Below are positions 4,469 to 29,417 of a DNA stretch of 64,000 nucleotides, piece after piece. The notes below the pieces were generated by a model. That model saw only the letters and a list, made by a program, of their open reading frames with translations, was not told where the DNA came from and did not search any database. This stretch comes from Naegleria gruberi. Taxonomy: Eukaryota. Position 1 is the first letter of the stretch; each line of letters begins with the position of its first letter. Location of the stretch: assembly GCA_000004985.1 (NCBI GenBank), contig GG738881.1; one strand, written 5' to 3'. The position numbers and the translations under genes were made by a program.

Positions 4469-6085
4469 TTACAAAATAAATTGATTCTGGTTCACAGAGA
4501 GAATCATCAATACTCCATCTCCTTGATCTGAAGCTTGTTGTTGAGATTTTGCAATATTAATTTCACTGTGATAATAATCATCTAGAAATGTAGTTGCTTT
4601 GAATCCAAACTTGGTGTAGAGTCTCTGAGCTGGTAAATTGAAAGAGGAAACATGTAATTGAATCCACAAACACTTCTTCCAATATTGAACAAATCCGCTT
4701 TGCATAGTTGGATAGTTATTCCAATATTTACATTCCTCTTCCTCAGTGTCAGCTATTTGGTCAACATTGACAATAACATGTTCATTAGAATTTAAAGATG
4801 AAACATAGTATGTTGTTTCAGAGGTATCTAAATTGCAGGCATTCGTCGTTGGTGTGATTGAATATTGAGAGCTTTGTACTTCATCATTCATTGATCTCCA
4901 CATCCAAGAATAGGTCAGAACATGTTGAATGGTAAATCTTAACAATTCCTGCCCAATTCCATTCTTTCTCAAATCTGGATGAACTGCAAATGAGGTAATT
5001 TCACATCGTTGCTTCTCCTTATTAATATTATAGGTAATGTAACCTGCAACAATGAGAGATCCAAAAATGTTGGTGTTATTCCTAGTACAAGCAACCCAGG
5101 TGAAATTATCAACTGGTTTTTCATGATTATTACATAGAGATTGTTTAAATGCCTGATAGAGATACTTCTTATCTAGTGGTTTTGAAAAGCAAGAGCATTC
5201 AATATCGTACAATGCCTCAAATGTTTGATCTGAGAATGGATAAATGAGAATATCTGCTGTCTTTTCTGTTGGACGAATATCAATCGAGTTGGAAGGAGAA
5301 TTATTTACATGATTTACATCCAATTGATTGGTTTGATCTGGTAAAATATCATTAAAATTGTCAACATAGATACTTTCAGCAATTCTTCTTGGTCTTTTCA
5401 TAATTGGAAGAGCTGATTGTAAGAATACATGATCAGACGGATGTGAAAATGATGAATTATTCGTAGTACTGGAATCAGTTCCACTCGTTACAGACATTGT
5501 ACTGACATTTAGCATCGATCCAGTTGTCTTTCTAATATGATTCTTCATACAAGTTGAGCACAAATCGAAATCTCTACAATTCAAACAGTGAAATCTCGTT
5601 CCATGAATGCTACACTCACATCCATCACAAGTAACACCCTTGTGAACTATCTTCCCCTGAACTATCTGAACTTGTTCCAAATTAAATGAATCAATTGGTT
5701 TGGTAAATAATTCATAATCTTTACAGTATTGATCAGCAACAAGCACTCCATTCTTTGATATTTTCTTATCCAATAATCCAATTCTTTCCAAAAGCGGATA
5801 TTTAAATTTTCTATTCAATACCAAAGCAAAACAATGTCCCTTTTTCTGATGATGTTTACCTTGTTCCTTTTTACAATTTAAACAGAGAGTATAGGCTGTT
5901 TGTTGAGAGGAAAGCGAACAATTTAAACAAATGGACATGATTTGATTTTCATTGATTTTTGATTTACAATTTTGACATGTACATTGATCGCTCCGATGAT
6001 GAATATCATTATTGAGAGGATGACCGGTCGAGGAAGAAAAAATGTGATTTCGAGAAGTAGCAGCAGGTTGGCGCAAATTGTTCAT
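4469..6085 (-). CDS. ZZ-type zinc-finger plus GNAT-family N-acetyltransferase protein (538 aa, single exon).
   Basis: Uninterrupted 538-aa ORF. The ZZ finger is CDGCECSIHGTRFHCLNCRDFDLCSTC. The C-terminal GNAT fold has the acetyl-CoA motif ...VHPDLRKNGIGQELL... and ...TKFGFK.... The N-terminus has further Cys clusters. Confidence 0.8.
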   Translation of the reverse strand: MNNLRQPAATSRNHIFSSSTGHPLNNDIHHRSDQCTCQNCKSKINENQIMSICLNCSLSSQQTAYTLCLNCKKEQGKHHQKKGHCFALVLNRKFKYPLLERIGLLDKKISKNGVLVADQYCKDYELFTKPIDSFNLEQVQIVQGKIVHKGVTCDGCECSIHGTRFHCLNCRDFDLCSTCMKNHIRKTTGSMLNVSTMSVTSGTDSSTTNNSSFSHPSDHVFLQSALPIMKRPRRIAESIYVDNFNDILPDQTNQLDVNHVNNSPSNSIDIRPTEKTADILIYPFSDQTFEALYDIECSCFSKPLDKKYLYQAFKQSLCNNHEKPVDNFTWVACTRNNTNIFGSLIVAGYITYNINKEKQRCEITSFAVHPDLRKNGIGQELLRFTIQHVLTYSWMWRSMNDEVQSSQYSITPTTNACNLDTSETTYYVSSLNSNEHVIVNVDQIADTEEEECKYWNNYPTMQSGFVQYWKKCLWIQLHVSSFNLPAQRLYTKFGFKATTFLDDYYHSEINIAKSQQQASDQGDGVLMILSVNQNQFIL

Positions 6086-6377: not shown

Positions 6378-9300
6378 TTAAATATCTTCTCCTGCTGGAC
6401 TAATCATTATGGAAATCTTATCCAAATCATTGCCAATAGATATGGAAGACCTATTTGGACGCATCACAATTGGATTCACATGATGTTTCTCCTTTACAAG
6501 ATATGTTTTACATTCACCTTTTCCTTTTACCGAAACTTTTCTTTCTTCAAATTCGAATAAATCGTATGTTCTTTCGTAGGTACTTCGAGAAAGTTGGATT
6601 CGTCCTGGTACCCCAGTAGATTCCATTCTTGAGGAAGTATTGATGGTATCTCCCCATAAGTCTGTTTTTAATTATAAATATTCAATATTTTTGTAACAAA
6701 TTGTAATGCATAGTTAAAATATCGAAAAACATACCATAGGCAAATTTCTTTCTTCCAATCACACCAGCAATAACTCCTCCAGTATTCAATCCAATTCTAA
6801 CATTCAATTGTGAATCTAAATTTTCAGAATTATATGAACGGATTACTGACAAGGTGTCAATTGCAAATCTCAAAGTTCTTTCTGGATGATCGGATTGAGC
6901 ATTCACACCATGCAATCCTCCAACACAAAAATACGAATCCCCAATTGTTTTTATCTTTTCCAAATTGTATTTATCTGTCAAATCATCAAATCCGTTTACA
7001 ATTCTATTAAGCATTAGAACTAGCTCAGAAGGATTCATGTTAGAACTCAAATTTGTAAATCCAACCCTAAATAGATTATTTTCTAATAAATTCAAGGAAC
7101 TTACATATCACTGAAATAACAAGTAATGTCAGAAAATCTTTCGGCAATGAAAGTTTCTCCATTTTTAAGTTTCGTCGCAACTTCTTCTGGAAGAATGTTC
7201 CTTAATAAATTTTCAGAATTTTTCTTCTCCTCCGCAAGTAAACTATTCTGTTTCTTTTCCATTGTAATGTCCTTAATAAATAGAGAAACAAATGAGCTAT
7301 TGTTAATTTCAGTTCCAAAAATGCTCACTTTGGCGGGAAATTTACTCGAATTCTTTCGAATACAATCAATTTCCAATACTTCTCCCAATTCATTTTCTTC
7401 CCCTTTCGTATGGTATTTGAATTCGCCAGTTGCTTTCTTCATCAATTCGTGAAAAGACGGATCAAAGAGTGTTGTGAAGGATAAACCCAAAACGTCAACT
7501 GCTGATTTTCCAAACATTTTCTGAGCTGCAATATTGATAAATGTCACTTCTCCTCTTTCATTACATGTGACAGCTCCTTCTACCATTGAATTGAGAAGAT
7601 TCTTAATGGCATCGTCATATTCAGTCTTTCGTTTCACATGTGAACTATTAGAAAGTGTATTATTCACAATGAAATTCTTCAAAATATCATTCGAATCTAA
7701 ATAATCTATTGGAATGTAATTCAAAAACGTTCTCAATGTGGTAATATCATAATCAGTTGTGTGAAAGCTCATATAAATGTAATAATTAAAAGCAATCAAG
7801 AAGAAAAATCCAAACACAAAGAATACAATACTAATCACTTTCGATGATGAAGTAGAAGAAAGTGTTGTCAACAATTCCAATAATCTCTCAATCATTTCAT
7901 CTGTCATGTTAAATATACTGAGATAGTACAAAAAAGTGTCAGGTGCCTTTGCATAGAATGGATTCAAAATATCTTCATTGAATTTTGAACACAAATGAAG
8001 AACAGTTGCAACTAATTCTTGTAAATCATAACACGTTCCATTTAGACATGTAAGTGGAGCAGTAATTACCTCGTCAACTCCTGGATATTTGTTGAATATT
8101 GAGCTTGTCAAATTTCCACCGAATAAAAGTTCTGCAAATTGAGATTGTGCTTCAGAAATGTAGATGCGATTATCAGAGTGGTATGTATCTAGATTGGATT
8201 GATTGGCTAATGCAGGATCGTTAACAGAATGCCCTGACTTGATACCATAAAAGGCAAACAATTCACCCAATCGGACATTTAATCTTGTGCAAGCTCTTAT
8301 CACTGATGTGGCTGTGTCCACATTGACCATGGCCTGAGATGACATGGCCACATTCAGATTATTTTCCACATACATAAATGAAATACAAAGTGAAAATACT
8401 ATTAAGGAAAGAAAACCAATACTAAGGGACATGAATTTTGGACTAACTACCCTTCTCAAATGTTTCACTTCCTGAGTGGACCGTTTTTGAAGATCATGAT
8501 AGACGGATCCGACGAATTCTTTGGGAATCTTACTGAATAGGTTGATTATTCGAGAAGATTTAGACATTCCAATTCTGGAAATTATTAAAAATGTTCCATA
8601 AATGATAATTAATACAAATGTGGAAGTAAATAAGTAAATTCTCAAAATTCTATCAAGTAGCAAATTCTGAGCCCTCTTTCTAATCTGAAATTTTGAACAA
8701 AAAAGACCATTCGCCTCACTTGCAGCTCTTCTATTAAGGTAAGTATACATAAATTCATAAGATTTGATCGTTTCATTGTAATTCTTCCAATTGTAAATAA
8801 TTTTCGTGTTGGATATGAATTCTCTCGTCAACTCACTCATGGAAATGTTCTTCTTGTAGCTCGTCGTGTAAACTCTATCACTGGTGCTTACACTTGCTGT
8901 AGGAACAACAATCGGATTAATCACAGCTTTGTAATCTTCAACCATTTGTGTTGTAAACTGTGGTGATATTGAATTAGCAGCTAGATTTTGTAAATATTGC
9001 AAAATCCTTTTCAATCTACGTTGGTGATTATTCAGAAAATATTGAATAGTTTCATATTCAGAGGAATTCACAGCTGGTTGACTAATATTTAGATTATTGT
9101 AAAGCTCATTGTAAATTTGTCCCATTCTCACTTCACGCATCAAACTTGAAGGACTCGTTCCAGGTAAGCAAGAATCCAAAGATAATGGAATTTCCGTAAC
9201 TAAACTTCCCAAAACAATGCAAAGAATGAATGCAATTAAAAGTAAAACTATCTGAAACAAGGCTAAACCAATTAATGTGTAATTTCGTACTTTGGATTGA

Positions 9301-10970
9301 TAGGGAGTGTTAAGAGCGTTTCTAATAAAGAGATGTTTCTTTTCTGTGGATCCAGCCACTTCAATTCCTTCAAATTTTTCCTCCTCCAACTCAATCATGG
9401 TATTTCGTCTATTTTCTAATAAAGTATTTGGAGGTGTAATCATACTATTGGCAATACTAAAATGCTTTTCAGTTTTTGGTTTCGTCTTTTTCTCAAACTT
9501 TTTAACAATTGGCTGAGCTTTCGACTCTTCCTCTTCCAACTGAAAAGCTTGTTCGAATAAATCAGCAGCTGTTTCCTTGTCAAACTTGAAATTCTCTAAA
9601 TAACTTGCATAAAACCTCAACACTGTCTTATCGTGTTTAAAATTTGTCATTAAATGTTTAAATCTCTCATCACAATACAAGGTCAATGCAGTTGTACGAG
9701 AGATTAGTTGATTGATCTTAATTTCATTAGGTAGGTCAGAAATTATTTCCTTCCAAAACATGCGATGGATTGACCACAACTCATCCTGTTGTTTTTCCAG
9801 ATCGTGGAGCATGGTTTTGATTTCTACTTGATTAATTCCGTGAGTTTTAGTTGAGCTGTAAACTTCAATTTCTTTCATTCTTTCCATAATTAGAATTCTT
9901 GTCCAGCCATTGTTACAGAAGCGTTTTGCCTTTTTTAGAATGTAGGTAGCATAGGAAGAACTGTTTTCATCGTTCCAATANNNNNNNNNNNNNNNNNNNN
10001 NNNNNNNNNNNNNNNNNNNNNNNNNNNNNNNNNNNNNNNNNNNNNNNNNNNNNNNNNNNNNNNNNNNNNNNNNNNNNNNNNNNNNNNNNNNNNNNCCAAT
10101 TCGTTGTCTCCACACTCGTATCCTACTATGGACCTTTCCTTTCAAAGTTCTAAACTCGGTCACAAGTATGGCCATGAAGATAAAGTACATGGCCATGAGA
10201 ACACTAGTAATGGCAATTTTCGCCGTATATCCAATTGCATCCAATGAAAGTGTGATAGGATAATTGAGTACACGGAACACCCAACTAGCATACTGTCCAT
10301 ACGGATTTTCCTTAATATAATTGGTATTCGAAAGTGGATAATTACTTCTCTCTGAAGAAAGTGTTGGAAATATCAAATTAACCCAATACATGTACATGTA
10401 GAAACCAAAAATCAACACCCTCTCAAACATTCGAATCTCAGTTTCACTCGTTTTCACAGTCAAGTAAAAGTTTGCCAATTTTTCATTGAATAATTGAAAG
10501 ACTGAAGTTGGTGCACCACTCGAAGTTGTTAAAACATTATTGAAAGAGGACATGTTATCGGATGCTGTTGCTGGATTATTTCCTCCTCCAACTCCTGCTA
10601 TGGATAAATCGTACTGTGTATTTGTTGCTTGTGTTGGGCTGACAATTTGAATATTAGTTGAATTGTTATTGCTAATAGGAGTGGTTATTATGGTTGTGGT
10701 TGTGGAGTTTTTGTTGTTGTTGTTGTTATTCAGCTGATAAATTCCGCTACCACTCGAGGAATTAAGGAAATTAATATTGTTATTGTGATTAACATTGTTA
10801 TTGTTGTCGTTTGGTAATGTTGGAGAGGAAGTTAATGTAATTAGTGGAATGCTCATATCATCGCTTGCTTGTTGTTGAAGCATCGTCGTTGCTAAAGTAG
10901 AGACTTGTGGTGAAGATGAAGATGAAGAAGTGTTATCAACAATATTGCTCATCATCCTATGTTTTTTCAC
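6378..10970 (-). CDS. Multi-pass membrane class III nucleotidyl (adenylate/guanylate) cyclase with a PAS domain. Exons are 10970..7105 (interrupted by the assembly gap), 7066..6735 and 6661..6378.
   Basis: The 1289-aa ORF has many hydrophobic segments and a PAS-like block (VTCNERGEVTFINIAAQKMFGKSAVDVLGLSF...) followed by a coiled-coil region. It ends ...ERFSDITCYFSD|GTAAGT. After a 38-nt intron, exon 2 gives (M)VGFTNLSS...GDSYFCVGGLHG...RIGLNTGGVIAGVIGRKKFAY|GTATGT. After a 73-nt intron, exon 3 gives DLWGDTINTSSRMESTGVPGRIQLSRSTYE...KGKGECKTYLV, the canonical cyclase catalytic motifs. Confidence 0.8.
9981..10095. other. Assembly gap (115 N) inside the large cyclase ORF.
   Basis: Literal run of n characters. 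The ORF track shows X residues at this position. Confidence 0.99.
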
Positions 10971-11665
10971 TTGTCCTTACTTTGAAAATAGAAACCAATA
11001 GAGTTTTCGTACTGAAAAGGAAATACGGAGCAACACAAATCAGTCCCTTAATAATTTACAGAGTCATCATCACATCATCATTGTGCGAGTGTTGTTGGAG
11101 AGCTTGTATTGTTACATAGTGTTGGGTATACATCATTTCAAAGTAGTTCGTTTTTGTGCACTCAAATGGAGTCCAAATTTGGATAGCTTAATTTTTTAAA
11201 AAGTAAATTACATTCTGCTTATTGAGATGGTGTTGCAAGACCAATAATGTCAGGAATTTGAATAATATTGTTTGGTCAACTGTCCAAAAAATCAAATTTT
11301 CAATAGATCTAAGTATCTAAAGCCTTGAGGAGTAATGTAATTATTCAATATGGACAATGTTTTCAATTGTGTCATGGTGCTAATTAACATCCAGAACTTT
11401 GCTCCTTCATATTCAAGCTCATTTTCTCCAATGCAGAGTGTTTCAATACAGCAATTATCTGTAACACGGTTAGACTCAATTTGCTGGGGAATATTGCAGA
11501 AAGTTTAGTCAATCGATCCAGTTGACTAATTGGTCTAATTCCATCTTGTCTAAACTCGGCCCAAGACAAAGAAATACTTCATCTTTAATACGGGAACAAA
11601 TAATATTGTTTGGACACTTATTGGTATTAGTAGTTGATCAGTAATTACATGAATAAACAATTGGT

Positions 11666-13792
11666 TTATTCATCATCTTGATAGATTTTTTCCAAACCGA
11701 GTATGGTATTCTTTTCAACTTGAACTGTGAGATTGTGTTCTTTGAGTAAACCGTTTGAGCAAAAGATTCTTCTCACCGATTGCAAGACACGTTGATGATC
11801 TACTTGGTCATTATTGGCGACACGAACCTTAATGGTAGCAATTAATTCTTGCTTTCTCTTGTCAGCATCAATTTCAATGTCCTCCTCATCAGCTTCATCG
11901 AGTGAGGAACAATTGAGAGCCCAAAAATGTTCACTATGACATTCCAATACTCCTTCAACCATGGATGAAACTTCCTTTACACACGAGTTCAAATGATTAG
12001 ATAAATTTTCAGGAGTTGTCTGCAATAGAATTTTTCCATTGGCCTTCAACACAGGAAGAGAGAAGAATACGCATGTCATTGTACTCATACAACATAGAAC
12101 AAAATCAAATCCAATACCAGCACTTGAATAGTAAACAGCTTTCAAATAAATAAAGAGAGCAACGTGAATGTGAGCCTCTCTCATAATGATATAGATCCAA
12201 AACTTGGCAGATGGAATCTTTTCTCTGATATAATTGTGAATAGTATTGTAGTATCTTCCAATAGTTGTTGTTTGGGAGGTGTTAAAAACCGAGTTGAAGG
12301 AGGAAAATTGTTGGTACCACATTGGTGAGCTATTCATTCTATTCAAAGGAACACTTCCTCGAGAGGAATTAGAAGATGGATTCTTTCGCTTCTCGGCAGA
12401 AGAGAGCAATAAAAAGTCTTCTTCATTCTTCTTTGCCTGATAGGAGGAACTTCCTGAATAATTTCCAAACAAGTAAATTGATAATCCATTAATAAATAAT
12501 CCAAATAATACGAGAAGATATGTGAAAATACCAACTCTGTACTGATCCAATAGTGTGTCAATAGTTGTTGAATGATCATTAGAAGCCCTAGCTGATGAAG
12601 GAATGTGCAAACCAACGCCATTCTCTTCCTCATGAGCTTGGGAAGAGAATTTAGAGGTGAGTACATATTGAATCATTTCAGAAAAGATACTCAATGAGAG
12701 GAAGGAAGAAAATACAGCATTGGCAAAACGTAACAATACTCTCAAACGTTTCCACAAAGAATAAGTATAGGGTTGGAAGAGTAATCTCTTGATTGAACCC
12801 TCCTCTTCCAGTGTGGAATTATCCCCAAATGACGATGTATTATTTAGTGATGATGTTGTTGATCCGAGAGGAGAGTCAAAGGTGTTGCTATTATTATTAT
12901 TATTGGGAACAGAGTTTGTCTTGAATTGGCTCGACTTGTTAATGACACTACTGCTCGACCCCTGTAATGTATTCTCTTCGTGTGTAGTCTTGATGTAAAT
13001 TACAATTAAATCGATCAAAAACATAAATCCTCTGTGGAGGAGATAAAATCCAGAAAATAATATTAACAAGCTGACCATGAATCCGTGATTTCTAAAGCTT
13101 TGTACAATATTCTCTTGTTCTTCATTGTTAGATTTGGCAGATTCGTGATTATGTGTACTGCCATACTGAATCATACCAATGAAAATTTCCAAAATTGAAA
13201 ATGTTAAAATGATAATGCAAAATAGGAAATGTGTCTTCAATTGTTGATGTTGTTGGAAGGAGAGGGAGTAATTTCTTGATGAACTCAAGGAGAGGGGAGA
13301 AATGAAAAACGAAACAAATTGTTGAATATTTCCCAGCAACCAATGTGCTTCAGGATTAGTATTCTGTAAGGATTGAATCCAATTGGACAAACTGGTCAAA
13401 TTGTCGGAAATATTCTTCTTTGTAAATAATTGTTTGTATCCACCAGTGGTAATTAAATGTTTCAAATTCAAGATAAAACCAATCACAAACACAATCAATG
13501 TCTTGAACCAATTTAAAAACATGGTTGAAAATAAATGTATTCTGACAGACATATCTTGAGCAATAACAAGAATAGGCATGTCACCTTCATCTATTTCTTG
13601 TCCAGAACAGAAAATTCTTTTAAACGATCTAATTCCTCTCTGTAATCTTCTCCAAACATTGTTACCCAATTGCATACTTTTTGCTTTTCTTTGGTCATTT
13701 GGAATATGATTACATTGTTCATTACATTGATTGTTGTTGTTGTTGCTGGAATTGTTTTTGTCGTCTATTACTGGTACTGCTGCTACTACCAA
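11666..13792 (-). CDS. Cation diffusion facilitator (SLC30/ZnT5-ZnT6-like) zinc transporter homologue with a long low-complexity N-terminal region.
   Basis: The 708-aa ORF has several TM helices. Its C-terminal cytoplasmic domain (...ANGKILLQTTPENL...VEGVLECHSEHFWAL...ATIKVRVANNDQVDHQRVLQSVRRIF...LTVQVEK) matches the ZnT5/6 C-terminal domain pattern (ILLQ.TP...GVLEV.NEHFW.L...VHVRI.RD...TLTVQIFKD). The canonical HxxxD pairs are not obvious, as in ZnT6. Confidence 0.6.
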   Translation of the reverse strand: MVVAAVPVIDDKNNSSNNNNNQCNEQCNHIPNDQRKAKSMQLGNNVWRRLQRGIRSFKRIFCSGQEIDEGDMPILVIAQDMSVRIHLFSTMFLNWFKTLIVFVIGFILNLKHLITTGGYKQLFTKKNISDNLTSLSNWIQSLQNTNPEAHWLLGNIQQFVSFFISPLSLSSSRNYSLSFQQHQQLKTHFLFCIIILTFSILEIFIGMIQYGSTHNHESAKSNNEEQENIVQSFRNHGFMVSLLILFSGFYLLHRGFMFLIDLIVIYIKTTHEENTLQGSSSSVINKSSQFKTNSVPNNNNNSNTFDSPLGSTTSSLNNTSSFGDNSTLEEEGSIKRLLFQPYTYSLWKRLRVLLRFANAVFSSFLSLSIFSEMIQYVLTSKFSSQAHEEENGVGLHIPSSARASNDHSTTIDTLLDQYRVGIFTYLLVLFGLFINGLSIYLFGNYSGSSSYQAKKNEEDFLLLSSAEKRKNPSSNSSRGSVPLNRMNSSPMWYQQFSSFNSVFNTSQTTTIGRYYNTIHNYIREKIPSAKFWIYIIMREAHIHVALFIYLKAVYYSSAGIGFDFVLCCMSTMTCVFFSLPVLKANGKILLQTTPENLSNHLNSCVKEVSSMVEGVLECHSEHFWALNCSSLDEADEEDIEIDADKRKQELIATIKVRVANNDQVDHQRVLQSVRRIFCSNGLLKEHNLTVQVEKNTILGLEKIYQDDE

Positions 13793-14483
13793 TTAATTGT
13801 GGAGAGAAGGAGAAGGAATCCCGTGATGAATCAGTCAATTGTTGTTGTTGATTGTTATTATGAGAAGGAGAGGAGGGAATAAAGAAACTAATAGCCAAAT
13901 CAGAGTTGCTATTAATTCCACTGTTTAAAGATGGTGATGATGAGGTTGCTATAACAACATTTGCTGATGTTTGTGTGGAATTGAAAAGATCATAGGGATT
14001 TGGTACACGGGCACTTGTTGTTGTAATATTCAAGTGAGAAGTGGCAGTACTACCCGAGGATGATGCAGAAGGTGAAGCAATCCTCGCACTACCTGCCAAT
14101 GACAGTGGTGGTACGGTTATCAATGAAGCACCACCTTGTTCTGGTGATTTTACTCCAAATCCACCAGTAGCAATAATGGTATCATTTGGTATTGTTGTAG
14201 TTATTGTTGGCGAAGAAGAAGAATTGGTATCAACAGCAGCAGCAACTACACTCACTATAGATCCTCCATCATCTTCATTGTTGTTATTATTTGTTGTACT
14301 TCTACCACCATCAACAATTACATCAGACACCTTCGGATGGATTATTGTTACTGTTGTTACTAACATCCACTTGCTGTGATGGAAGCGCGGAGGTGTTTTC
14401 CATTTTTTTCTCGGATGATGACGATATTTATTGTGATGATGATAATATGACATCACCAACATTGATATTCTTATTGGTGGCAA
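13722..14483 (-). CDS. Low-complexity ORF (Ser/Thr/Asn/Gln-rich). It is possibly the true N-terminal exon of the ZnT-like gene, since it overlaps that gene's start by 71 nt in another frame.
   Basis: The 253-aa ORF ends 71 nt inside the downstream ORF. Either a short intron or an indel in the CAACAACAACAA tract would join them. No domain is recognisable. Confidence 0.3.
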   Translation of the reverse strand: MPPIRISMLVMSYYHHHNKYRHHPRKKWKTPPRFHHSKWMLVTTVTIIHPKVSDVIVDGGRSTTNNNNNEDDGGSIVSVVAAAVDTNSSSSPTITTTIPNDTIIATGGFGVKSPEQGGASLITVPPLSLAGSARIASPSASSSGSTATSHLNITTTSARVPNPYDLFNSTQTSANVVIATSSSPSLNSGINSNSDLAISFFIPSSPSHNNNQQQQLTDSSRDSFSFSPQLIGSSSSTSNRRQKQFQQQQQQSM

Positions 14484-14762
14484 CAGAGGGATTATTGTTA
14501 CTTATTGGATAATATTAAGATGAAATGGTGTTGTGAAGAATGAATAAAATTTGAATAAAAAATTGTTGGTTGCATTGTTTTAATAATTAAATGGTTGTGT
14601 AAAAAGTTTTGATAATAAATAAGGTTTTCAGTGCGCCTTTTACTAAATAATTTAAATTTAAATAGTCCAACTTATATTAATATCTAATAAGTATTTAAAT
14701 AAATTTTAAAATAAAAAATAAATTTCCTTACCAGATTGAAATCCAAAATTAGAACAAAAAAA

Positions 14763-16593
14763 ATGTTGTTCAAACAATCAGAAGGCACTTCCAACTCTTT
14801 TTCTTCGTCGGAAGAGGCCTCTTCTTCCTCATCCATGAGTGATGATCAAAATACTAATAACAATAATAATACAAATCAGAATAATAGTGATCACGAAGAT
14901 CAACATGAGGATGATGAAGGAATTAATAGGAGAAAATCATCAACTAGTTTTAGAAAATTAGTGGAAAAGAGAAAGTATGGAGTGATGGTAAGTCTTTCAT
15001 TGAATGAGTTTAAATTAATGAATTAATAATATTAAGAATGGATCGGAATTTTCTGATCAAGTCTATTCTTCATCCTCTATCATTCAATCATTGAGTGCTA
15101 GTGGTAAATTAATTGGCCACAAGGTAAGCTTACTTTTAATCATTAATTGATCAAATATATTGAATCATTCAATATAATAGGGTTGTGTCAATTCTATCAA
15201 TTTTAATGTGTCTGGTGATTTGATTGTAACTGGAAGGTAAGTTTTGATTAACACATTCATATATGAAAATCAATATAGTGACGATACAACTGTAAAGGTG
15301 TGGGATACTTGGACTGGAAAGTGTTTGAAAACATTTGGTGGACATGTTTCGAATGTTTTTGCAGTTTCATTCCTTAATGGAAATGATAATATGGTGATTA
15401 GCGGAGGAAATGATTCAGATATTCGTCTATATGATGTGGAAAGGGGATCATGTACTGTTTTTCAACATCATAGAAAGAAGGTACTAAAAATTGCATGTCA
15501 CTCTGCACTTCCAAGTTGTTTTATGAGTTGTTCTGCTGATGGAACCATTCGTTTGTTTGACACACGTTGTAAATATGAAAATTGTAAAATAGAGCAGGAT
15601 TTAAGGTTAAACCCCAATATAATAGATGCCTACGATCATGATATGAATGTTGCTCCTCAATACAGTGGTGGAGGTAGAAAGAATACAGTCATTTCAAGAG
15701 AAGTTACTGAACCTTCATTGATTGTTGATTTTGAAGGTGAAACCTTGTACAGTGTAGATATTAATCCATCTTGTTCGAATGAGTTTATTGTCTCATCAGA
15801 ACTTTCAGATACTCGTTTATTTGATATGAGAAAAGTTGGTAATCATTCATACCAATCCTACTTGAATATTTTCAGAAATTTGGAAGTGGAGTCGGCTCCA
15901 GTTTCTGGTAGTAGTTTTTCAACGAATGGACGCCAAATTGTACATACTCATTTAGGAGAAAAGATTTATACCTTTGATACGTATCATAATTTTGAGAAGG
16001 ATGAAGGTCTTAATTATTCAGATCAAGAAAAAGCAGAATCAGATGTAAAATCATACCAGAGAAGATATCGGTAAGTTTACTAATTTATAATATTAATTTT
16101 TAATTATTTCATCTTAATTTGTAGTGGTCACGTATCTGAGGATACAATTAAGGGAGTTAGCTTTTTCGGTAGAAATTCTGAATATGTCATGTCAGGTTCT
16201 GACAATAATGATATTGTCATTTGGGATAATCAAACAGGAGAACTTGTGAGAATTTTGGAGGGTCATGGTGAAACAGTCAACACTGTTGTTGGCCATCCAA
16301 AATATCCAATCATTTGTTCTGGAGGTATTGAGGACTTTGTGTATATTTGGAAACCATCTGCAGATAAAATGACTTTATCTGAGGAGGAAGTAAAAAAAAG
16401 AAAGCTGGACATTGAAAGAGCTCTTTCCAATGAATCAACTGGAGAATATTCATCAAATGCATTCGAGTTCATGATGGCCTTTCATGAACTCTTAAATTCT
16501 GGAAATCCTAATTGGCAACGAATATTATTAAGACATATTGCCATGACAGAAGAGGATGATTCTGAAGAAGAGGAAGAGGATGATGAAAATTAA
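14763..16593 (+). CDS. DCAF8-like WD40-repeat protein (DDB1/CUL4-associated-factor family). Five exons: 14763..14987, 15037..15123, 15181..15236, 15279..16070 and 16125..16593.
   Basis: ATG lies in an A-run. Four introns of 49, 57, 42 and 54 nt have GTAAGT/GTAAGC donors and TAG/AAG acceptors that keep the frame. The product reads ...KYGVM|NGSEF...GKLIGHK|GCVNSINFNVSGDLIVTG|SDDTTVKVWDTW...YQRRYR|GHVSEDTIKGVSFFGRNSEYVMSGSDNNDIVIWDNQTGELVRILEGH..., followed by an acidic tail. Order and motifs match DCAF8/WDR42. Confidence 0.75.
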
Positions 16594-16616
16594 ATGTTTT
16601 TTATCAATATAATAGA

Positions 16617-19419
16617 CTACTTTTCTGTAGCAATATATACACCATTCCAAGAATCTGGAGGTGGTTCAAGCAAATAAGCTCTGCATCTCTCTGCCATTTC
16701 AAGAGCTGCTGAATCTTGATTATACTTGTCAGCATACTCTCTGAATGCCTTCTCTGCAACACCAAACTTTTTCTTCAGGTACAAGTCTTCCAGAATGTTA
16801 TTGTACAATCTGCAATAATCAACCTTATCTTGTGGAATCATAACCGAATCTCCTTGGAATGGTGACCATTTTCTAGCAACAATTTCATAAACTCTAACAC
16901 CAGTTACTTTACCCTTGACAGCGACCACATCTAACATTCTGAAAAGGAACAAGTCTTTGACAATTTCATAACAAAACTCTGACACCATAATGTTAGTTCC
17001 ATACACCTTATTCAAACCTTCCAATCTAGAAGCAAGATTTACAGAGTCTCCCAAACAAGTATAAGATAAACGATATGTTGAACCAATATTACCGACAAGG
17101 ACATCACCACAACTAACACCCACTCTAGTGTAGAGACCTGGCTTGCCTTCCTTTTCTAATTGTCTATTATAAGGCTGGAGGGATTTTTGCATTTCGAATG
17201 CAGCATTGCAACCGAAAAAGACATAAAAATCAAATGTATCTGGAGCACCAAACAAGGCCATCTAATATTATTTCATTGAAAATGGTTAAGCATTGCACAA
17301 GTTATTAAAACCTACCAAAGAGTCGCCAATATACTTATCCAAAACACCTCTATTTCTATATACAACTTCAGAGGTAACTTCAAAGTATTTACCCAAGATG
17401 GCAATCAATGTGTTGGGCTCTGTTGCTTCACAAATAGTCGTAAAACTCTTAATATCTGAAAATAGAATGGCAATATGTTTGGAATCAACACCCAAATCAA
17501 ACGATGCTGAATCACTGCCAATAAATTTGGAGACAATTTCTTTTGGTACGTATTTCATGAAACCATCGACAGCCAAAGACATTTTAGTAAAGTGGTTTCT
17601 CAATTTCTTAACTTCGTGGAAGAGAATTAGACGCTTCTTCTTTGCTTGAACTTGACCTTTACCAAGAGCGTCCATATCATTTCCGAGCGAAACAAGAGGG
17701 GCTGTAATTAACATACTCACAACGACAGCAATAACTAAGGAAACAAACAAAATGATACAGTCAGCAATCAAGACGATATTTCTAAACCAAATAACAGAAC
17801 CCATAAAATCGTCGACTGACATGATTGTTAAGACCTTCCAATTAAGGTCATGTTCATCGTCTACGGATTCCATATTCAACAAGTAACTGTTACCATTCAC
17901 TGTGTATTGATTGTCATGGCCTGTGAAATCTTGCAGATTACCCCCATACTTGGTCATAAGTAATTTACCAATTTCCTGCACATCCGGCAGTGAGCTTTCA
18001 TGAAGTTTCTTTCGCACCAGTTTATGAGGAACAATTTGATCATAAACATATAAAATTTCTTCGTTTGGTTTGGAGCAAGCAATCATTTCACTGGTTAGAG
18101 AAGAAACCACATACACCATTGAGTTGGGACTCATTTTGACACTTGCCAAATAGGCATTAATATCTTTGACAAGCAGATCTGTCGTTACCACATATTGAAC
18201 ATCTCCTGTAGCATTCAGAATTGGATGGTATGCTGTAATCCAAACACTTTCTACATTACTTGTTGCATACAAACTTGTCCATCCTTTCTTTTTTCTTTCT
18301 AAGGGGAAAGTCCACCATTCGAAACCGTACACAATTTCAGCATCCAATGATTGAGGTTCTTTTCTGCTCAAATTATACCTAAAATCACTAAAAATTGGTT
18401 CTTCAGCATAAAGAACACCATTCTGATAGTACTCTATTGTACATGCTGTCGTATTACTCAATATACCAAAATAGTAGTCATCTTTGTGAGTGAATGAGGC
18501 ATAACGAAGTCCAAAACCCATGACCATAGAGTAGAGAACTTGAATTCTTAGATTCCAATCAACCATTTTGGGGCTCAACTTGTCAAGTGCAGTAAAACTG
18601 TTCGTTACACTATCAGTAATTTGGAACGGTAGTTGAATAAAGTTATTCACGAATTCAACTGTTCTCAGCTTTGTTTGTGATCCCAGATTGGTAGTGAATT
18701 CATTAATAGATGCACCTATAGTTTTCAATTCATTATAAGAATCAGAAATTTAAGAAATTGATTGACTAAAAAGACATACCTTGTAAAACAATAGTAGCAA
18801 CGAATATGGAAATAGTCGAAATAAGGATCAATAGAATGATAATCACAGAAAGACAAAACTTAATGGAGAATATTCTAGATACCAGAGAATTCAAATAATT
18901 TTTCTCCTTCTCCACTTTTTTCCCCTTCTCCAGTGTGAGATCTTCATCTTCGGCTAGTACTTCTTTAAGCTTTTTCTCATCTTCTGCACTTGCAACGGGC
19001 ACTATCAATTTACTATTGCTTGCCTTTCTTGTGGCATTGCTCTTTTGCTTTTTAACTTCCTTCTTATTTGTTGTCTTTGTATTCTTTCTAAGTGATTCCT
19101 TGGTCGTTAAGGACTTTTTCATAGGTGATGATGGTGTGTTCGTCGACACAACAGCAGCCTTTGATAAATTATTGCTGCTACTACCGTTGGTACCAGTAAT
19201 ATTATTACTACTACTATTATTATTATATGCAACAACATTATTATTTGATAAATCAGTGATGGGTGTGAGTGTTGTTATTGGGGTTACGGGCGATGTGGTC
19301 GATTCATCATTATTATAATCATTAAGGATTTGTAATTCCGAACTGGTTGATGTTACCAGAGCTGCTGCTGAGGAGGAATTATTGGTTGATTTATTCTTTT
19401 GGGCTACTCGTGTGACCAT
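16617..19419 (-). CDS. Receptor-type class III nucleotidyl cyclase. Domains run: N-terminal low-complexity, TM, extracellular Cache-like sensor domain, TM, cyclase domain. Exons are 19419..18780, 18715..17316 and 17261..16617.
   Basis: Exon 1 ends ...FVATIVLQ|G GTATGT. After a 64-nt intron, exon 2 begins (G)ASINEFTT.... It contains WITAYHPILNATGDVQYVVTTDL (Cache-like), a second TM (VIWFRNIVLIADCIILFVSLVIAVVVSMLI) and the cyclase start KHIAILFSDIKSFTT...DKYIGDSL|GTAGGT. After a 54-nt intron, exon 3 gives MALFGAPD...GDSVNLASRLEGLNKVYGTNIMVSE.... Confidence 0.8.
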
Positions 19420-21320: not shown

Positions 21321-22475
21321 TTAAATAGTTTCGAAATCCACTGTTTCAATTCTTGTTAATTTGTAAGCTTTTGATTCATTAATCTTTACAATGACAGTAC
21401 CATTAATATCCAATTTTTCAAATTCCTCTCGTAACTTATCAAGTGTCTCCTTATCCATGTTTGTATCTTTAGCATGTTGTTCCAATTCTTCAACAGAAAG
21501 AGCAACCAGTGGAAATATTGTGTATCTGGTTTCTAGAATGCTTTTGTAATGATCAACTGCTGAATCTATCAGTAAACTCATCAAGAACTTGGGAGCACAC
21601 TTGGCTTCTATTTTTCTTGCTTCGATCAGTGTTTGAAAATAGGCATCTCTATTCTTAAACATTGGAAATGGAAATGGACAACACCAGTCCAATATTCTCT
21701 TTGAAATTAATCTACACAGTCTTCCATTACCATCTGGGAAAGGATGAATGTCGACAAAATGGAATTGTGCAAAGGCAGCTAATGCAAATACATATAAAAG
21801 CTGTTTTTCACAGTTTTCAGGATAGCATTTGGTAATTGCTTGACTGAGTGAGTAAACATCATTGCACAATAGTCTTGTGGTTGATTTTACAATAGTGTGT
21901 TTAGGATAAGTATGAGTAATTCCATTATATGAAGAAGCTTCGCTACCATGATCTCTATACTCCATTTTGGCATTTGGTATGACAATGCCAAACCATTTCT
22001 TCAAGGATGATTCATCAAAAATTACAGAGGATATCATCTTGTTTTTGTAATTTTCCTTTCTGAAAGTTTCGTTTAATAATGACAATGTGATCATAACAGC
22101 CTCGATCTCTTGTTCGTTACTGGAATCCAATTGATTGTTCAGAATCTTTTCCGTGTCTTCAAGTGAGCTTGGTCCAACATTTTCAATCATATTAGTATAA
22201 TATATCCATTCACAAACCGAGTGAGGAATTGAGGACGAAATGAGGTTTTCATTACCTTCAACCTCTTCTAACAGGCGACAAAACTCTCCAATTTTATTCT
22301 CTTCAAACTCATCAGCAAATCCAAGCAATTCCTCTAAATAAAATCTTGCTTTTTCTTCAATATCTGCAGGTGGTGTGCCGAGCTTTTCGTGCACCTCCAT
22401 CAAACAACAACTTTGAGGACCATTATCAAGGCACGATAAATATTCAGTGGTGTGCATTTTTTTTGAGGTGTACAT
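21321..22475 (-). CDS. Fic (filamentation induced by cAMP)/Doc-family domain protein, a putative AMPylase-type enzyme.
   Basis: Single 384-aa ORF with the canonical Fic active-site motif HPFPDGNGRLCR (HxFx[DE]GNGRxxR) in FHFVDIHPFPDGNGRLCRLISKRIL. Confidence 0.8.
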   Translation of the reverse strand: MYTSKKMHTTEYLSCLDNGPQSCCLMEVHEKLGTPPADIEEKARFYLEELLGFADEFEENKIGEFCRLLEEVEGNENLISSSIPHSVCEWIYYTNMIENVGPSSLEDTEKILNNQLDSSNEQEIEAVMITLSLLNETFRKENYKNKMISSVIFDESSLKKWFGIVIPNAKMEYRDHGSEASSYNGITHTYPKHTIVKSTTRLLCNDVYSLSQAITKCYPENCEKQLLYVFALAAFAQFHFVDIHPFPDGNGRLCRLISKRILDWCCPFPFPMFKNRDAYFQTLIEARKIEAKCAPKFLMSLLIDSAVDHYKSILETRYTIFPLVALSVEELEQHAKDTNMDKETLDKLREEFEKLDINGTVIVKINESKAYKLTRIETVDFETI

Positions 22476-26806: not shown

Positions 26807-28672
26807 TCACTTAAATTTATTCTTTTCAACGAAAAATTGTGGCATTAGTTCAATAGTGGCAAGACACTGATTGTAAAGATAGGCCATTTTTTCCTCTCCG
26901 AAAAAAGAATGAAAGTTTGTTTCTTCGGTGGAATATTTGTGACGAATGGTTTGGCAATATTGAGCGAATGGCATTCCATTGTATTGAATATGTTCAAGAG
27001 CATACTTGAAACCATCTAGCATGTGTGGATTCGTTAGGCCTGCATATCCAAGAGATCCAGTGGTATAGGGGTTGAAGAAATCTGCAATTTTTTCAATACA
27101 TTCCACACCTATGGATGGACTAAAGTTGTCAATCATGAGTTTAAATGATTCCCTAACATCATCAAAACCATAATAATCCACAAAGCAAGTAAGCATTTTG
27201 GAATTGATTTCTGATAAAAACTCCAAAGTTATTCCCTTGTAATTATTAAATAGAATATTCAAATCATACTTTGCAGGGTACATCTCAAAGAATGGTTTGA
27301 AAAATTGATTAGGTGAGCTTTTGCAATAGTTTCTAAAGTATGATAAAATAAAGTTAGTATTTCCCGTTTCTGGACTTATTTCATAAGGGTCAAAATTTTC
27401 AATTTTTGATAACAAGTGTGAAATCTTTGAACGGTAGTTGAATCTGTGAAAGATAATCTTTAAATCGATTGGAGTAATCATTCCACGCTCACTTAATAAA
27501 TCAATAATTTCTCTTTCATAACCATATAAAAAGAGACTATGTGATTTGACTCTGGAATAATCAATAGATTTTTCCTCAAAAACTTCCAAAAACTGACAAA
27601 GACTGTTGACAACTTCTTCTGGCGTTTCACATGAGTCAGGACTGAAGAATTCCATAAAATATTTGTCTTTTTGATATCTGAAATGCCACTCAAAACATGT
27701 TTGAAAGTTATCAAGCCATTGATTAGGATAAATAGCATTGAACATCTTTTTTAAATATCTCAATCTCACCATTCTTTTGGTACGTGTCAGCTGCATGAAA
27801 TCAATATATGGATCTTCACTTTTTTCATAATTTCCCTCCACAGAAATATAGTTCAGTAAAAAATCCAAAAAGCTTTCATTTCCATTTTCATCTTCATTCA
27901 CATTCCAATAGGAAATTAAAATCTTTTCCAAAATCTTGTCATTTAGAATTGGTTTGAAATTTTGAACAAAGCAAATTACTTGAGGAGAACAATCATCGTC
28001 TGTTTTCCCAATCTCACCACTCATCACATCAGCAATTGAAAAAGTAAATCGTTTCCAATACTCTTGAGCATAAAGAGAATTATTCACTCGTCCATTCAAT
28101 GTGAACTTTTTAGCTTGGTTAAGGAAATACTGAGCCATATATCCAGAATGTTCATAATTGACCACTCCCTTCGTGAAATCGTGACGAATCTCATCCACTC
28201 CCTTTGCCATCTTCATATTATAGTGCATAATCATGGCAGAGGAGGCCAACTTTTTAAATCTCATCCCAAATACTGTCGATTTCTCTCCCTTCTCTCCATA
28301 CCTATCTTCATCCATATACTTTTCAAAACTTGCCCTACTCACCGATTTTTCCTTCACAATCTGCGATTCATAAAACTTGTTCAATTGACTAATTATTGAC
28401 TTGTACAAATTCCCGCCTTTTTTTTTTCTTTCATGACCCATCACCATCATCAAATCATTTTCATCACCATCATCGGAATGATTTAATTTTCCATAATAAT
28501 CAATCTTTGTTTGTATAAAATTGGACAGCAGTGTTTTCCACACAATTTCAAACCGATCCAATTCGTACCAATTTTTGCAGGTGCAGAGGAGTGAGAGACC
28601 ATCTGCAATGGAGAGAAATTCGAGGATGGCAAAGAGTGTGTCAATGTGAATCTCTGTATTGTTGCTGGACAT
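26807..28672 (-). CDS. F-box-like protein (621 aa); the C-terminal region has no recognisable domain.
   Basis: The N-terminus IDTLFAILEFLSIADGLSLLCTCKNWYELDRFEIVWKTLL is F-box-like. It is a long uninterrupted ORF. Its 3' end is only about 70 bp from the 3' end of the convergent Trx-TPR-J gene. Confidence 0.65.
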   Translation of the reverse strand: MSSNNTEIHIDTLFAILEFLSIADGLSLLCTCKNWYELDRFEIVWKTLLSNFIQTKIDYYGKLNHSDDGDENDLMMVMGHERKKKGGNLYKSIISQLNKFYESQIVKEKSVSRASFEKYMDEDRYGEKGEKSTVFGMRFKKLASSAMIMHYNMKMAKGVDEIRHDFTKGVVNYEHSGYMAQYFLNQAKKFTLNGRVNNSLYAQEYWKRFTFSIADVMSGEIGKTDDDCSPQVICFVQNFKPILNDKILEKILISYWNVNEDENGNESFLDFLLNYISVEGNYEKSEDPYIDFMQLTRTKRMVRLRYLKKMFNAIYPNQWLDNFQTCFEWHFRYQKDKYFMEFFSPDSCETPEEVVNSLCQFLEVFEEKSIDYSRVKSHSLFLYGYEREIIDLLSERGMITPIDLKIIFHRFNYRSKISHLLSKIENFDPYEISPETGNTNFILSYFRNYCKSSPNQFFKPFFEMYPAKYDLNILFNNYKGITLEFLSEINSKMLTCFVDYYGFDDVRESFKLMIDNFSPSIGVECIEKIADFFNPYTTGSLGYAGLTNPHMLDGFKYALEHIQYNGMPFAQYCQTIRHKYSTEETNFHSFFGEEKMAYLYNQCLATIELMPQFFVEKNKFK

Positions 28673-28785
28673 TTTTTTTTTTAATTGTTTTTTAAACTTT
28701 GAAAACTATTTGTAAATAAATTTATGAATTTTACAAAATAATTTCACATAAAAATTACATCAATAATGGGTACACAGATCCTTTT

Positions 28786-28975
28786 ACAGTTCTGATTTTA
28801 ATCAAGTAGATATTCGTGAGGGTATCAATACTGGAGCTGCAATTGCTGGAGTGATTGGGTAAAAAACAATTAAAAAAAAAATGTCCAGCAACAATGCAGA
28901 GAAGTTGTTTCTAGAAATTTAAACATTAACAAATAATAGCACCAAGAAATTTGCATATGATTTGTGGGGTGTAAG
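28786..28975 (+). pseudogene. Relic of a class III cyclase catalytic-domain gene: two exon-like pieces with intact splice-site flanks but no continuation.
   Basis: ...FNQVDIREGINTGAAIAGVIG|GTAAAA... (79-nt intron) ...[24 protein letters not shown]. It is similar at both protein and nucleotide level to the [25 protein letters not shown] segment of the cyclase at 6378..10970, but the intron positions differ. The downstream DTVNTASRMES-type motif is absent. Confidence 0.45.
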
Positions 28976-29239: not shown

Positions 29240-29417
29240 CCAATTGCTGGAACTGGTGAGTCTGGAGAGAGTGGAGAAGGTGGACCTGTTGTCAATGCTC
29301 AAATTTATTCTCCATACTCTCTTGATGTTAACTCTAAAGGTGAACTAATCTTTATCGATGAAAATTACAAAGTTAAAAAGATTTTCAAGAAAGGTACATT
29401 ACCGTATCGAATTCGTT
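29240..29417 (+). pseudogene. NHL-repeat-like coding fragment, probably part of a disrupted NHL/EGF gene.
   Basis: One frame translates to IAGTGESGESGEGGPVVNAQIYSPYSLDVNSKGELIFIDENYKVKKIF, an NHL-type beta-propeller blade pattern. It is bounded by a stop/donor-like GTACAT and has no start. Confidence 0.35.

What the first reader, a model, noticed from the sequence alone, without database searches (positions are those of the whole stretch)
6378..19419. Two structurally different membrane class III nucleotidyl cyclases on the same strand within 13 kb, flanking a ZnT-like transporter and a WD40 gene
Gene A (6378..10970) combines many TM segments, a PAS-like domain, a coiled coil and one cyclase domain. 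Gene B (16617..19419) has a TM - Cache-like extracellular sensor - TM - cyclase layout typical of bacterial or protist receptor cyclases.

Both have the GDS(Y/L)..G...G..........RIG(L/V).TG..IAGV(I/V)G.KKF.Y(D)LWGD(T/S)(I/V)N(T/L) catalytic motifs. Their cyclase domains are interrupted by introns at different positions. A third, truncated cyclase-domain copy lies at 28786..28975. This indicates a locally expanding sensor-cyclase family with heterogeneous input domains.
Basis: partly seen in the sequence, partly recalled or inferred. Interest (0 to 1): 0.55.

Follow-up and report, generated by a model that had tools for sequence, protein, structure and literature searches.

The report
Two known Naegleria receptor adenylate cyclases
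The window comes from the amoeba Naegleria gruberi, and the two genes are real but unrelated members of its already published repertoire of membrane adenylate cyclases, so the finding is correct but ordinary.

Summary
The window is Naegleria gruberi; three encoded proteins match its GenBank proteins exactly. Both genes exist as described, on the minus strand.

- **Gene A** is XP_002674931.1, already named "membrane bound adenylate/guanylate cyclase with PAS domain". It has a multi-TM module with a TmcB-type TPR domain, a PAS domain, a signalling helix and a class IIIa cyclase domain.
- **Gene B** is XP_002674934.1 (D2VLR9). A 2016 paper already lists it as a dCache_1 "bacterial-type adenylate cyclase". 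It has TM, a PDC/Cache-like sensor, TM and a class IIIb cyclase domain with a bacterial-type C-terminal tail.

Both keep the six catalytic residues, with Lys/Asp in A and Lys/Thr in B, so both are predicted active adenylate cyclases.

"Local expansion" is not supported. The two cyclase domains share only 27% identity and belong to different subclasses. The third copy is a roughly 40-codon relic on the opposite strand, closer to other paralogues than to gene A.

New minor points:
- A 115-N assembly gap lies inside gene A and probably hides about 250 residues.
- The public gene A model mis-splices a 38-nt intron and so loses the VGFT motif.
- Gene A belongs to a family seen only in Heterolobosea (89 cluster representatives). 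Its membrane module is predicted to carry helical-bundle extracellular loops.

Verdict: already known, low interest.

The parts
6378..10955 (-). Gene A, whole CDS (XP_002674931.1 / NAEGRDRAFT, 'membrane bound adenylate/guanylate cyclase with PAS domain'). My model has exons 10955..7105, 7066..6735 and 6661..6378.
   Evidence: The public 1399-aa model differs from mine at two places.
9981..10095 (.). Assembly gap of 115 N inside gene A exon 1. It probably hides about 250 residues, including 4-5 TM helices.
   Evidence: One search gives the N run. Paralogues have 6-7 hydrophobic segments and about 330 more residues between the N-terminal region and the TPR domain.
9519..9857 (-). Gene A cytosolic TPR_TmcB domain (PF25474).
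   Evidence: E 3.1e-12, 47 bits against a cut-off of 27. It is helical in the AF2 model.
7788..9266 (-). Gene A second membrane module. It has 4 TM helices (residues 564-582, 775-793, 841-859 and 1038-1056 of my 1488-aa model). Between them are two loops of about 180-190 aa, predicted to be extracytoplasmic helical bundles with nearly invariant Cys residues.
7263..7580 (-). Gene A cytosolic PAS domain.
   Evidence: PAS_9 1.7e-13, 51 bits against a cut-off of 27; the closest solved PAS domains are FixL and DosP; the proximal His of those is not conserved in the family.
7146..7262 (-). Gene A signalling helix and cyclase-transducer-like element (…EKKQNSLLAEEKKNSENLLRNILPEEVATKLKNGE).
   Evidence: the alignment to AC9 starts at LLRNI(L/I)P..VA..LK; weak hit to the end of HNOBA.
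6492..7145 (-). Gene A class IIIa cyclase domain, interrupted by introns 7104..7067 (38 nt) and 6734..6662 (73 nt). Catalytic residues are D1283, K1323, D1327, D1395, N1402 and R1406.
   Evidence: All 17 regex-matched of 21 scanned family cyclase domains have D-K-D-D-N-R.
16617..19419 (-). Gene B, whole CDS (XP_002674934.1 / NAEGRDRAFT_69877 / D2VLR9). Exons are 19419..18780, 18715..17316 and 17261..16617.
   Evidence: Exact match.
17778..18789 (-). Gene B extracytoplasmic sensor (residues 211-526) between TM1 (18790..18846) and TM2 (17721..17777). It is PDC/dCache-like.
   Evidence: One search gives the TM segments. Searches give MCP-like_PDC_1 at 5.7e-5, 24 bits against a cut-off of 27. One search gives the published dCache_1 hit at 323-521, E 5.6e-7. 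There is no PDB sequence hit. AF2 without an alignment failed.
16902..17480 (-). Gene B class IIIb cyclase domain, interrupted by intron 17315..17262 (54 nt). Catalytic residues are D634, K674, D678, T748, N755 and R759.
16620..16901 (-). Gene B C-terminal helical tail, ending …PPPDSWNGVYIATEK. The CHASE2-type cyclase P0001 has the same tail, which ends …PPGRDWDGVFTHTSK.
   Evidence: 33% identity over 310 aa, running to the last residue of both proteins.
28770..28970 (+). Relic of a third, class IIIa-type cyclase. Piece 1 is 28770..28858, a GT..AG intron-like stretch is 28859..28939, and piece 2 is 28940..28970, followed by GTAAGT. It has no start, no metal-binding region and no N/R region.
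   Evidence: tblastn 1.2e-6.; the spliced peptide matches family members at 87-90%.
28651..28902 (.). Inverted repeat with arms 28651-28692 and 28861-28902 (42 nt, 88% complementary). The second arm is an inverted copy of the F-box gene's 5' UTR and first 7 codons. It lies inside the relic's intron-like stretch.
11666..13792 (-). Intervening ORF, weakly ZnT/CDF-like.
   Evidence: No Pfam hit; 2.4e-5 to SLC30A1, ZnT7 and ZnT8.
15244..16593 (+). Intervening WD40-repeat gene on the opposite strand, with at least two exons.

Best explanation
Two unrelated receptor-type adenylate cyclase genes of Naegleria gruberi lie 5.6 kb apart on the same strand. Both are ordinary members of the organism's large, published cyclase repertoire.

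**Gene A.** It encodes a large polytopic membrane protein.
- The N-terminal TM helices are partly lost in an assembly gap.
- A cytosolic TmcB-type TPR domain follows.
- Then come four more TM helices, whose two long outside loops are predicted to fold into helical bundles.
- A cytosolic PAS domain, a signalling helix and one class IIIa catalytic domain complete the protein.

Because there is a single catalytic domain, the enzyme must work as a homodimer with two symmetric active sites. Each site has two metal-binding Asp, Lys and Asp for adenine, and Asn and Arg for the transition state. The predicted product is cAMP. I infer that activity is set by a signal read by the outside bundles and/or the PAS domain and passed down the helix.

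**Gene B.** It encodes a bacterial-style receptor cyclase. After TM1 come a double-PDC (dCache-like) outside sensor, TM2 and a short linker that is HAMP-like by eye. A class IIIb catalytic domain (Lys/Thr) and a helical C-terminal tail follow; CHASE2-type cyclases share that tail. It too is predicted to be a homodimeric adenylate cyclase, gated by a small extracellular ligand.

**Shown versus inferred.** Gene models, domain content, catalytic residues, subclass affinity and identity with the database entries are shown. Dimerisation, cAMP as product, ligand gating and topology are inferred.
For: - **Organism and identity:**
- **Domains:**
- **Catalytic hexads:**
- **Subclass affinities:** one search gives AC9/8/5 and mycobacterial adenylate cyclase structures at 1e-45 to 1e-66 for gene A. 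One search gives CyaB, a cyanobacterial cyclase fusion, CyaC-type cyclases and photoactivated cyclases at 1e-19 to 1e-27 for gene B.
- **A versus B:** 27% identity.
- **Gene B tail:** cyclase and tail are colinear with a CHASE2 cyclase to the last residue.
- **Gene B sensor:** published dCache_1 assignment and the label "bacterial-type adenylate cyclase".
- **Gene A family:** 89 representatives among 1.84 billion proteins. At least 35 of them carry TPR_TmcB, the TM module, PAS and the cyclase domain. All named members are Heterolobosea.
- **Background:** the cyclase expansion is published.
Against: - No biochemical data exist for either protein.
- Gene B's Cache assignment is below Pfam's present cut-off in my own scan. 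No homologue of the sensor was retrieved.
- Pfam does not detect a HAMP domain in gene B's linker.
- Gene A is incompletely assembled, so its TM count and topology are provisional.
Confidence: 0.85

Rival explanations
1. A local tandem expansion. On this view A, B and the relic descend from one ancestral cyclase gene duplicated in place, and later acquired different sensors.
For: Three cyclase-related sequences lie within 23 kb. The relic shares KKFAYDLWG with gene A.
Against: - The A and B cyclase domains share 27% identity and belong to different subclasses.
- Their intron positions differ.
- Gene B is colinear with CHASE2 cyclases, including the tail.
- The relic is closer to paralogues P0043 and P0062 (87-90%) than to gene A (63%). 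It also has a different intron position and lies on the other strand.
Confidence: 0.05
2. One or both proteins are guanylate cyclases, or catalytically dead pseudo-cyclases used only as scaffolds.
For: GenBank names gene A "adenylate/guanylate cyclase" without deciding between the two. Class III specificity predictions sometimes fail.
Against: - Both proteins have both metal-binding Asp plus the Asn and Arg.
- The specificity pair is Lys/Asp in A and Lys/Thr in B, not the Glu/Cys or Glu/Ser pair of guanylate cyclases.
- All 17 regex-matched of 21 scanned family members carry the same hexad.
Confidence: 0.07
3. Gene A is an assembly or annotation chimera. On this view the ORF upstream of the N gap belongs to a different gene from the TPR-PAS-cyclase part.
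For: The open frame across the gap is an artefact of N codons. Gap length is arbitrary.
Against: The part upstream of the gap matches the N-terminal regions of paralogues, with E down to 9e-29. Those paralogues carry TPR_TmcB further downstream in the same protein. Same-strand order and orientation are as expected.
Confidence: 0.05

Closest known systems
Mammalian membrane adenylate cyclases (AC9, AC8, AC5) and mycobacterial Cya/Rv1625c-type cyclases (class IIIa)
   Same: Gene A's catalytic domain and the helix before it align over their full length, at 1e-45 to 1e-66. The residues shared are Lys/Asp for adenine, the two metal-binding Asp, and Asn and Arg. Like Rv1625c (this point is from my own knowledge), gene A has one catalytic domain and so must act as a homodimer.
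   Different: The membrane part is unrelated to the 6-TM bundles of those enzymes. Gene A has a TmcB-type TPR domain, large helical outside loops and a PAS domain between the membrane and the catalytic domain.
Bacterial class IIIb receptor cyclases: CHASE2-type cyclases, P. aeruginosa CyaB, cyanobacterial CyaB1 and CyaC
   Same: Gene B's linker, catalytic domain and C-terminal tail are colinear with a CHASE2 cyclase, at 33% identity over 310 aa. Thr replaces the specificity Asp, as in class IIIb.
   Different: The sensor is PDC/dCache-like rather than CHASE2 or MASE2. The gene has two spliceosomal introns and a 180-aa low-complexity N-terminus typical of Naegleria.
Dictyostelium ACG and trypanosome receptor cyclases (from my own knowledge, not tested here)
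   Same: The layout is the same: TM, extracellular sensor, TM, single catalytic domain. These are protist enzymes that act as their own receptors.
   Different: From memory, they use different sensor folds: CHASE in ACG and a periplasmic-binding-protein-like fold in trypanosomes. No sequence comparison was possible with these tools.
Dictyostelium TmcB/TmcC membrane proteins, the source of Pfam PF25474. The name 'tiny macrocysts protein' is from my memory.
   Same: Gene A and its family carry the TPR_TmcB domain above Pfam's cut-off, embedded between TM helices.
   Different: From my own knowledge, the Dictyostelium proteins have no cyclase. phmmer with the whole module found only heterolobosean proteins. 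Homology outside the TPR part is therefore untested.
FixL / DosP heme-PAS sensors
   Same: They are the closest solved PAS domains to gene A's, at 8e-5 to 7e-3.
   Different: The proximal heme-binding His aligns with Leu in gene A and is not conserved in the family. There is no case for heme binding.

Membership tests
Class III nucleotidyl cyclase (PF00211), gene A | Profile match above the curated cut-off. | tested here: met
   181.6 bits against a cut-off of 21.9.
Class III nucleotidyl cyclase (PF00211), gene B | Profile match above the curated cut-off. | tested here: met
   76.2 bits against a cut-off of 21.9.
Catalytically competent class III cyclase | Two metal-binding Asp plus the transition-state Asn and Arg. 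| tested here: met
   Gene A has D1283, D1327, N1402 and R1406. Gene B has D634, D678, N755 and R759. Positions were read from the alignments to AC9 and CyaB. Activity itself was not tested.
Class IIIa adenylate cyclase (gene A) | Lys/Asp specificity pair, and closest relatives among animal membrane cyclases and Rv1625c-type enzymes. | tested here: met
   K1323 and D1395. The best PDB matches are AC9/8/5 and mycobacterial adenylate cyclase structures.
Class IIIb adenylate cyclase (gene B) | Thr in place of the specificity Asp, and closest relatives among CyaB, CyaC and the photoactivated cyclases. | tested here: met
   K674 and T748. The best PDB matches are 3r5g (CyaB), 6fht, 2w01, bPAC/OaPAC and 1wc1.
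Guanylate cyclase | Glu with Cys or Ser at the two specificity positions. | tested here: not met
   Lys/Asp in A and Lys/Thr in B.
PAS domain (gene A) | Profile match above the curated cut-off. | tested here: met
   PAS_9 at 51.2 bits against 27, and PAS at 29.4 bits against 22.6.
Heme-binding PAS of FixL/DosP type (gene A) | Conserved proximal His. | tested here: not met
   That position aligns to Leu in gene A and varies across 20 family members.
dCache / double-PDC extracellular sensor (gene B) | Profile match or fold match. | tested here: inconclusive
   - The current Pfam library gives only MCP-like_PDC_1 at 24 bits, below the 27-bit cut-off.
- AF2 without an alignment failed, with pLDDT 39.7.
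- The published dCache_1 profile hits residues 323-521 at E 5.6e-7.
HAMP linker (gene B) | Profile match. | tested here: not met
   No Pfam hit at E<=10 for residues 546-618. The resemblance is by eye only.
TmcB/TmcC family (gene A) | TPR_TmcB domain. | tested here: met
   47 bits against a cut-off of 27.
TmcB/TmcC family (gene A) | Homology of the membrane parts to Dictyostelium TmcB. | not testable with these tools
   No Dictyostelium sequence could be fetched. phmmer found only Heterolobosea.
Tandem (local) gene duplicates | Neighbouring copies are each other's closest relatives. | tested here: not met
   A and B share 27% identity. The relic is closer to P0043 and P0062 than to gene A.
CDF/ZnT transporter (ORF 11666..13792) | Cation_efflux or ZT_dimer profile match. 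| tested here: inconclusive
   No Pfam hit. phmmer gives 2.4e-5 to SLC30A1, ZnT7 and ZnT8 over 70 residues.

The most novel reading that the evidence does not exclude
Gene A may represent a receptor-cyclase family restricted to Heterolobosea that has not been described as such. The family has 89 cluster representatives, at least 35 of them with the complete architecture. In it, a polytopic TmcB-like membrane module with two extracytoplasmic helical-bundle loops and conserved cysteines would act as a ligand sensor. That sensor would be wired through a PAS domain and a signalling helix to a class IIIa adenylate cyclase. This would make the family a major chemosensory receptor class of Naegleria, Willaertia and Acrasis. 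One paralogue carries the label FM179. From memory, 'FM' marks the flagellar-motility-associated gene set of the 2010 genome paper, which hints at a role in the flagellate stage.
Probability: 0.4. Interest if true: 0.4.

Novelty: already known. Interest (0 to 1): 0.12.

Why it matters
It matters little as a discovery. The other is tabulated in a published survey of Cache domains. The cyclase expansion in Naegleria has been reported since the genome paper.

The practical value lies in corrections and a lead:
- **Gene A model.** The public model of gene A skips an assembly gap. It also mis-splices the first intron in the catalytic domain, which removes the conserved VGFT strand. Anyone expressing it from the database sequence would get a broken enzyme.
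- **Possible sensor.** Gene A's family has a confidently modelled membrane module with helical-bundle outside loops. This gives a concrete candidate sensor to test in an organism whose relative N. fowleri is a lethal pathogen.

Tried and rejected
- **Homologue search with full-length gene B.** It returned only two CHASE2 cyclases, because the low-complexity N-terminus swamped the word index.
- **Word-index search with gene A's membrane module.** It returned one hit. The exhaustive search was needed.
- **Word-index search with gene B's sensor.** It returned nothing. The database representative of gene B's cluster is only a 214-aa fragment, so absence of hits is weak evidence.
- **AF2 of gene B without an alignment.** Mean pLDDT was 39.7, which is unusable. 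I therefore ran no fold search on it.
- **Other failed look-ups.**
  - The look-up of encoding contigs found no record for two proteins of the window.
  - The AlphaFold database library was not available.
  - The 2010 genome paper is not held.
  - A literature search for TmcB found nothing relevant.
- **Heme-PAS idea for gene A.** Rejected, because the proximal His is not conserved.
- **Tweety-homologue (TTYH) resemblance.** Rejected. Foldseek gave E>=0.03 and TM-scores of about 0.1.
- **cAMP-pathway gene cluster.** Rejected. The other genes of the window are unrelated: GNAT-ZZ, Fic, DUF4116, thioredoxin-TPR-DnaJ, VPS9, a short-chain dehydrogenase, PP2C, an esterase, a nucleotide pyrophosphatase, a kinase, an ion channel, DBR1, a 2H phosphoesterase and an LRR protein.

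Full report
**Source of the window**

The window has 33% G+C, short GT..AG introns and Asn-rich proteins. Three encoded proteins match Naegleria gruberi GenBank entries exactly. These are my spliced gene B model, the ORF at 4469..6085 and the F-box ORF at 26807..28672. All three lie on one 379,849-bp contig.

**Gene A**

Gene A is on the minus strand. The long ORF 10970..7101 ends in FSDM followed by a stop, so an intron is required. Reading the DNA gives three exons: 10955..7105, 7066..6735 and 6661..6378. The introns are 38 nt and 73 nt, both GT..AG.

Pfam finds three domains:
- TPR_TmcB, 3e-12
- PAS_9, 1.7e-13
- Guanylate_cyc, 1.5e-53

A hydropathy scan finds at least six TM segments.

The gene is XP_002674931.1, named "membrane bound adenylate/guanylate cyclase with PAS domain".

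Two defects surfaced:
- **Assembly gap.** A 115-N gap at 9981..10095 lies inside exon 1. Paralogues have 6-7 hydrophobic segments and about 330 more residues between the N-terminal region and the TPR domain. Gene A shows only two such segments before the gap. The gap therefore probably hides about 250 residues.
- **Mis-spliced intron.** The public 1399-aa model bridges the gap with an invented intron. It also uses a longer first intron that deletes MVGFTNLSSNMNPSELVLMLNR. My 38-nt intron restores FSDMVGFT, which agrees with the family consensus CFFSDMVGFT..SS...P..LV.MLN.IV.GFD.

**Gene A's family**

I ran an exhaustive HMMER search with the 774-aa membrane module against 1.84 billion representative proteins. 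It found only 89 proteins at E<=1e-3.
- At least 35 of them carry TPR_TmcB, the TM module, PAS and the cyclase domain in the same order.
- The shorter hits whose clusters carry names are fragmentary gene calls of the same genes.
- Every named member is heterolobosean: N. gruberi, N. fowleri, N. lovaniensis, Willaertia magna or Acrasis kona.
- Of 21 family members with a cyclase domain that I scanned, 17 fitted my search pattern. All 17 have the hexad D-K-D-D-N-R.

**Gene A's membrane module**

AF2 with a 28-sequence alignment gave a confident, almost wholly helical model, with mean pLDDT 84.4 and pTM 0.67. Four TM helices extend into two loops of about 180-190 residues. By the even-TM rule these loops lie outside the cell. 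They carry nearly invariant cysteines.

The closest solved PAS domains are the FixL and DosP heme domains. The proximal His of those domains is not conserved in the family, so I drop the heme idea.

**Gene B**

Gene B is on the minus strand. Its exons are 19419..18780, 18715..17316 and 17261..16617, giving 894 aa.
- Two TM helices, 192-210 and 527-545, bracket a 316-aa loop.
- In the current Pfam library the loop gives only a sub-threshold MCP-like_PDC_1 hit. It has no PDB sequence match.
- The supplementary table of Upadhyay et al. 2016 lists D2VLR9_NAEGR (894 aa) with dCache_1 at 323-521, E 5.6e-7. The text speaks of a Cache domain in "a bacterial-type adenylate cyclase" of Naegleria. The same table lists a second Naegleria dCache cyclase, D2V3A4.
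- The linker, catalytic domain and C-terminal tail align at 33% identity over 310 residues with a CHASE2-type cyclase. The alignment runs to the last residue of both proteins.

**Catalytic residues and subclass**

| | Gene A | Gene B |
|---|---|---|
| Closest solved structures | AC9, AC8, AC5, mycobacterial adenylate cyclase structures | P. aeruginosa CyaB, a phytochrome-cyclase fusion, bPAC/OaPAC, other bacterial cyclases |
| Metal-binding Asp | D1283, D1327 | D634, D678 |
| Specificity pair | K1323 / D1395 | K674 / T748 |
| Transition state | N1402, R1406 | N755, R759 |
| Subclass | IIIa | IIIb |

Established knowledge of class III cyclases says Lys/Asp or Lys/Thr marks ATP use, while Glu/Cys marks GTP use. 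Both proteins are therefore predicted to be active homodimeric adenylate cyclases.

**Relationship between the copies**

The two cyclase domains share 27% identity, and their introns are at different positions.

The "third copy" is on the plus strand. It has three parts:
- 28770..28858 encodes …QVDIREGINTGAAIAGVIG.
- 28859..28939 is an 81-nt GT..AG stretch.
- 28940..28970 encodes TKKFAYDLWG and is followed by GTAAGT.

The spliced peptide is 87-90% identical to family members P0043 and P0062, but 63% identical to gene A. Nothing upstream or downstream resembles the rest of a cyclase. It is a decayed remnant of a different paralogue.

The intron-like stretch holds a 42-nt inverted copy of the neighbouring F-box gene's 5' end.

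None of this fits tandem duplication of one gene. From memory, the 2010 genome paper (not held) reports 108 cyclases in about 41 Mb. The pangenome paper reports at least 81. At that density about 0.17 cyclases are expected per 64-kb window, so several windows with two are expected by chance.

**Neighbouring genes**

- The WD40 gene is real but lies on the other strand.
- The ZnT-like call rests only on a weak match to the TM6 and C-terminal-domain junction of SLC30A1, ZnT7 and ZnT8. It has no Pfam support.
- The other genes in the window have unrelated functions.

**Verdict**

The "locally expanding family" reading does not hold. Both genes are already in the public record with essentially these descriptions. 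What is left is two gene-model corrections and a lead on an uncharacterised heterolobosean receptor module.

Noticed in passing
window 28651-28692 and 28861-28902: A 42-nt inverted repeat, 88% complementary with a 22-nt perfect core. The second arm copies the F-box gene's 5' UTR and first seven codons (ATGTCCAGCAACAAT…) in inverted orientation, 168 nt upstream of that gene. It lies inside the intron-like part of the cyclase relic. This looks like a fold-back or template-switch scar.
   Followed up: partly
window 29240-29400 (+): A short open stretch, IAGTGESGESGEGGPVVNAQIYSPYSLDVNSKGELIFID…, looks like one NHL or beta-propeller blade (TEN_NHL E 0.016, below the cut-off). It has no gene around it. 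It may be a second gene relic next to the cyclase relic, which would suggest a rearrangement breakpoint between 28.7 and 29.45 kb.
   Followed up: partly
window 7067-7104 and 9981-10095 (gene A): The public protein XP_002674931.1 lacks 21 residues of the catalytic domain (MVGFTNLSSNMNPSELVLMLNR), because a longer intron was chosen. It also skips the N gap with an invented intron.
   Followed up: yes
P0048 (NAEGRDRAFT_78958), a paralogue elsewhere in the genome: One member of gene A's family is labelled 'Uncharacterized protein FM179' by UniRef. From memory, FM marks the flagellar-motility-associated gene set of the 2010 genome paper. This is a possible link between the family and the flagellate stage.
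   Followed up: no
window 22586-24514 (+) and 32283-34811 (-): Two large proteins made of 10-11 DUF4116 repeats (E 1e-132 and 5e-109) lie within 10 kb of each other. This is another locally repeated family in the window.
   Followed up: no
window 49461-50930 (+): A voltage-gated-type ion channel ORF (Ion_trans 2.9e-24). I did not check whether it has a cyclic-nucleotide-binding domain in a further exon.
   Followed up: no
window 21321-22475 (-): A Fic/DOC-domain protein (3.8e-9).
   Followed up: no
PMC4822843 supplementary file 12: The paper's text says Naegleria has a Cache domain in a single protein. Its own table lists two dCache_1 cyclases: D2VLR9, which is gene B, and D2V3A4 (745 aa).
   Followed up: partly
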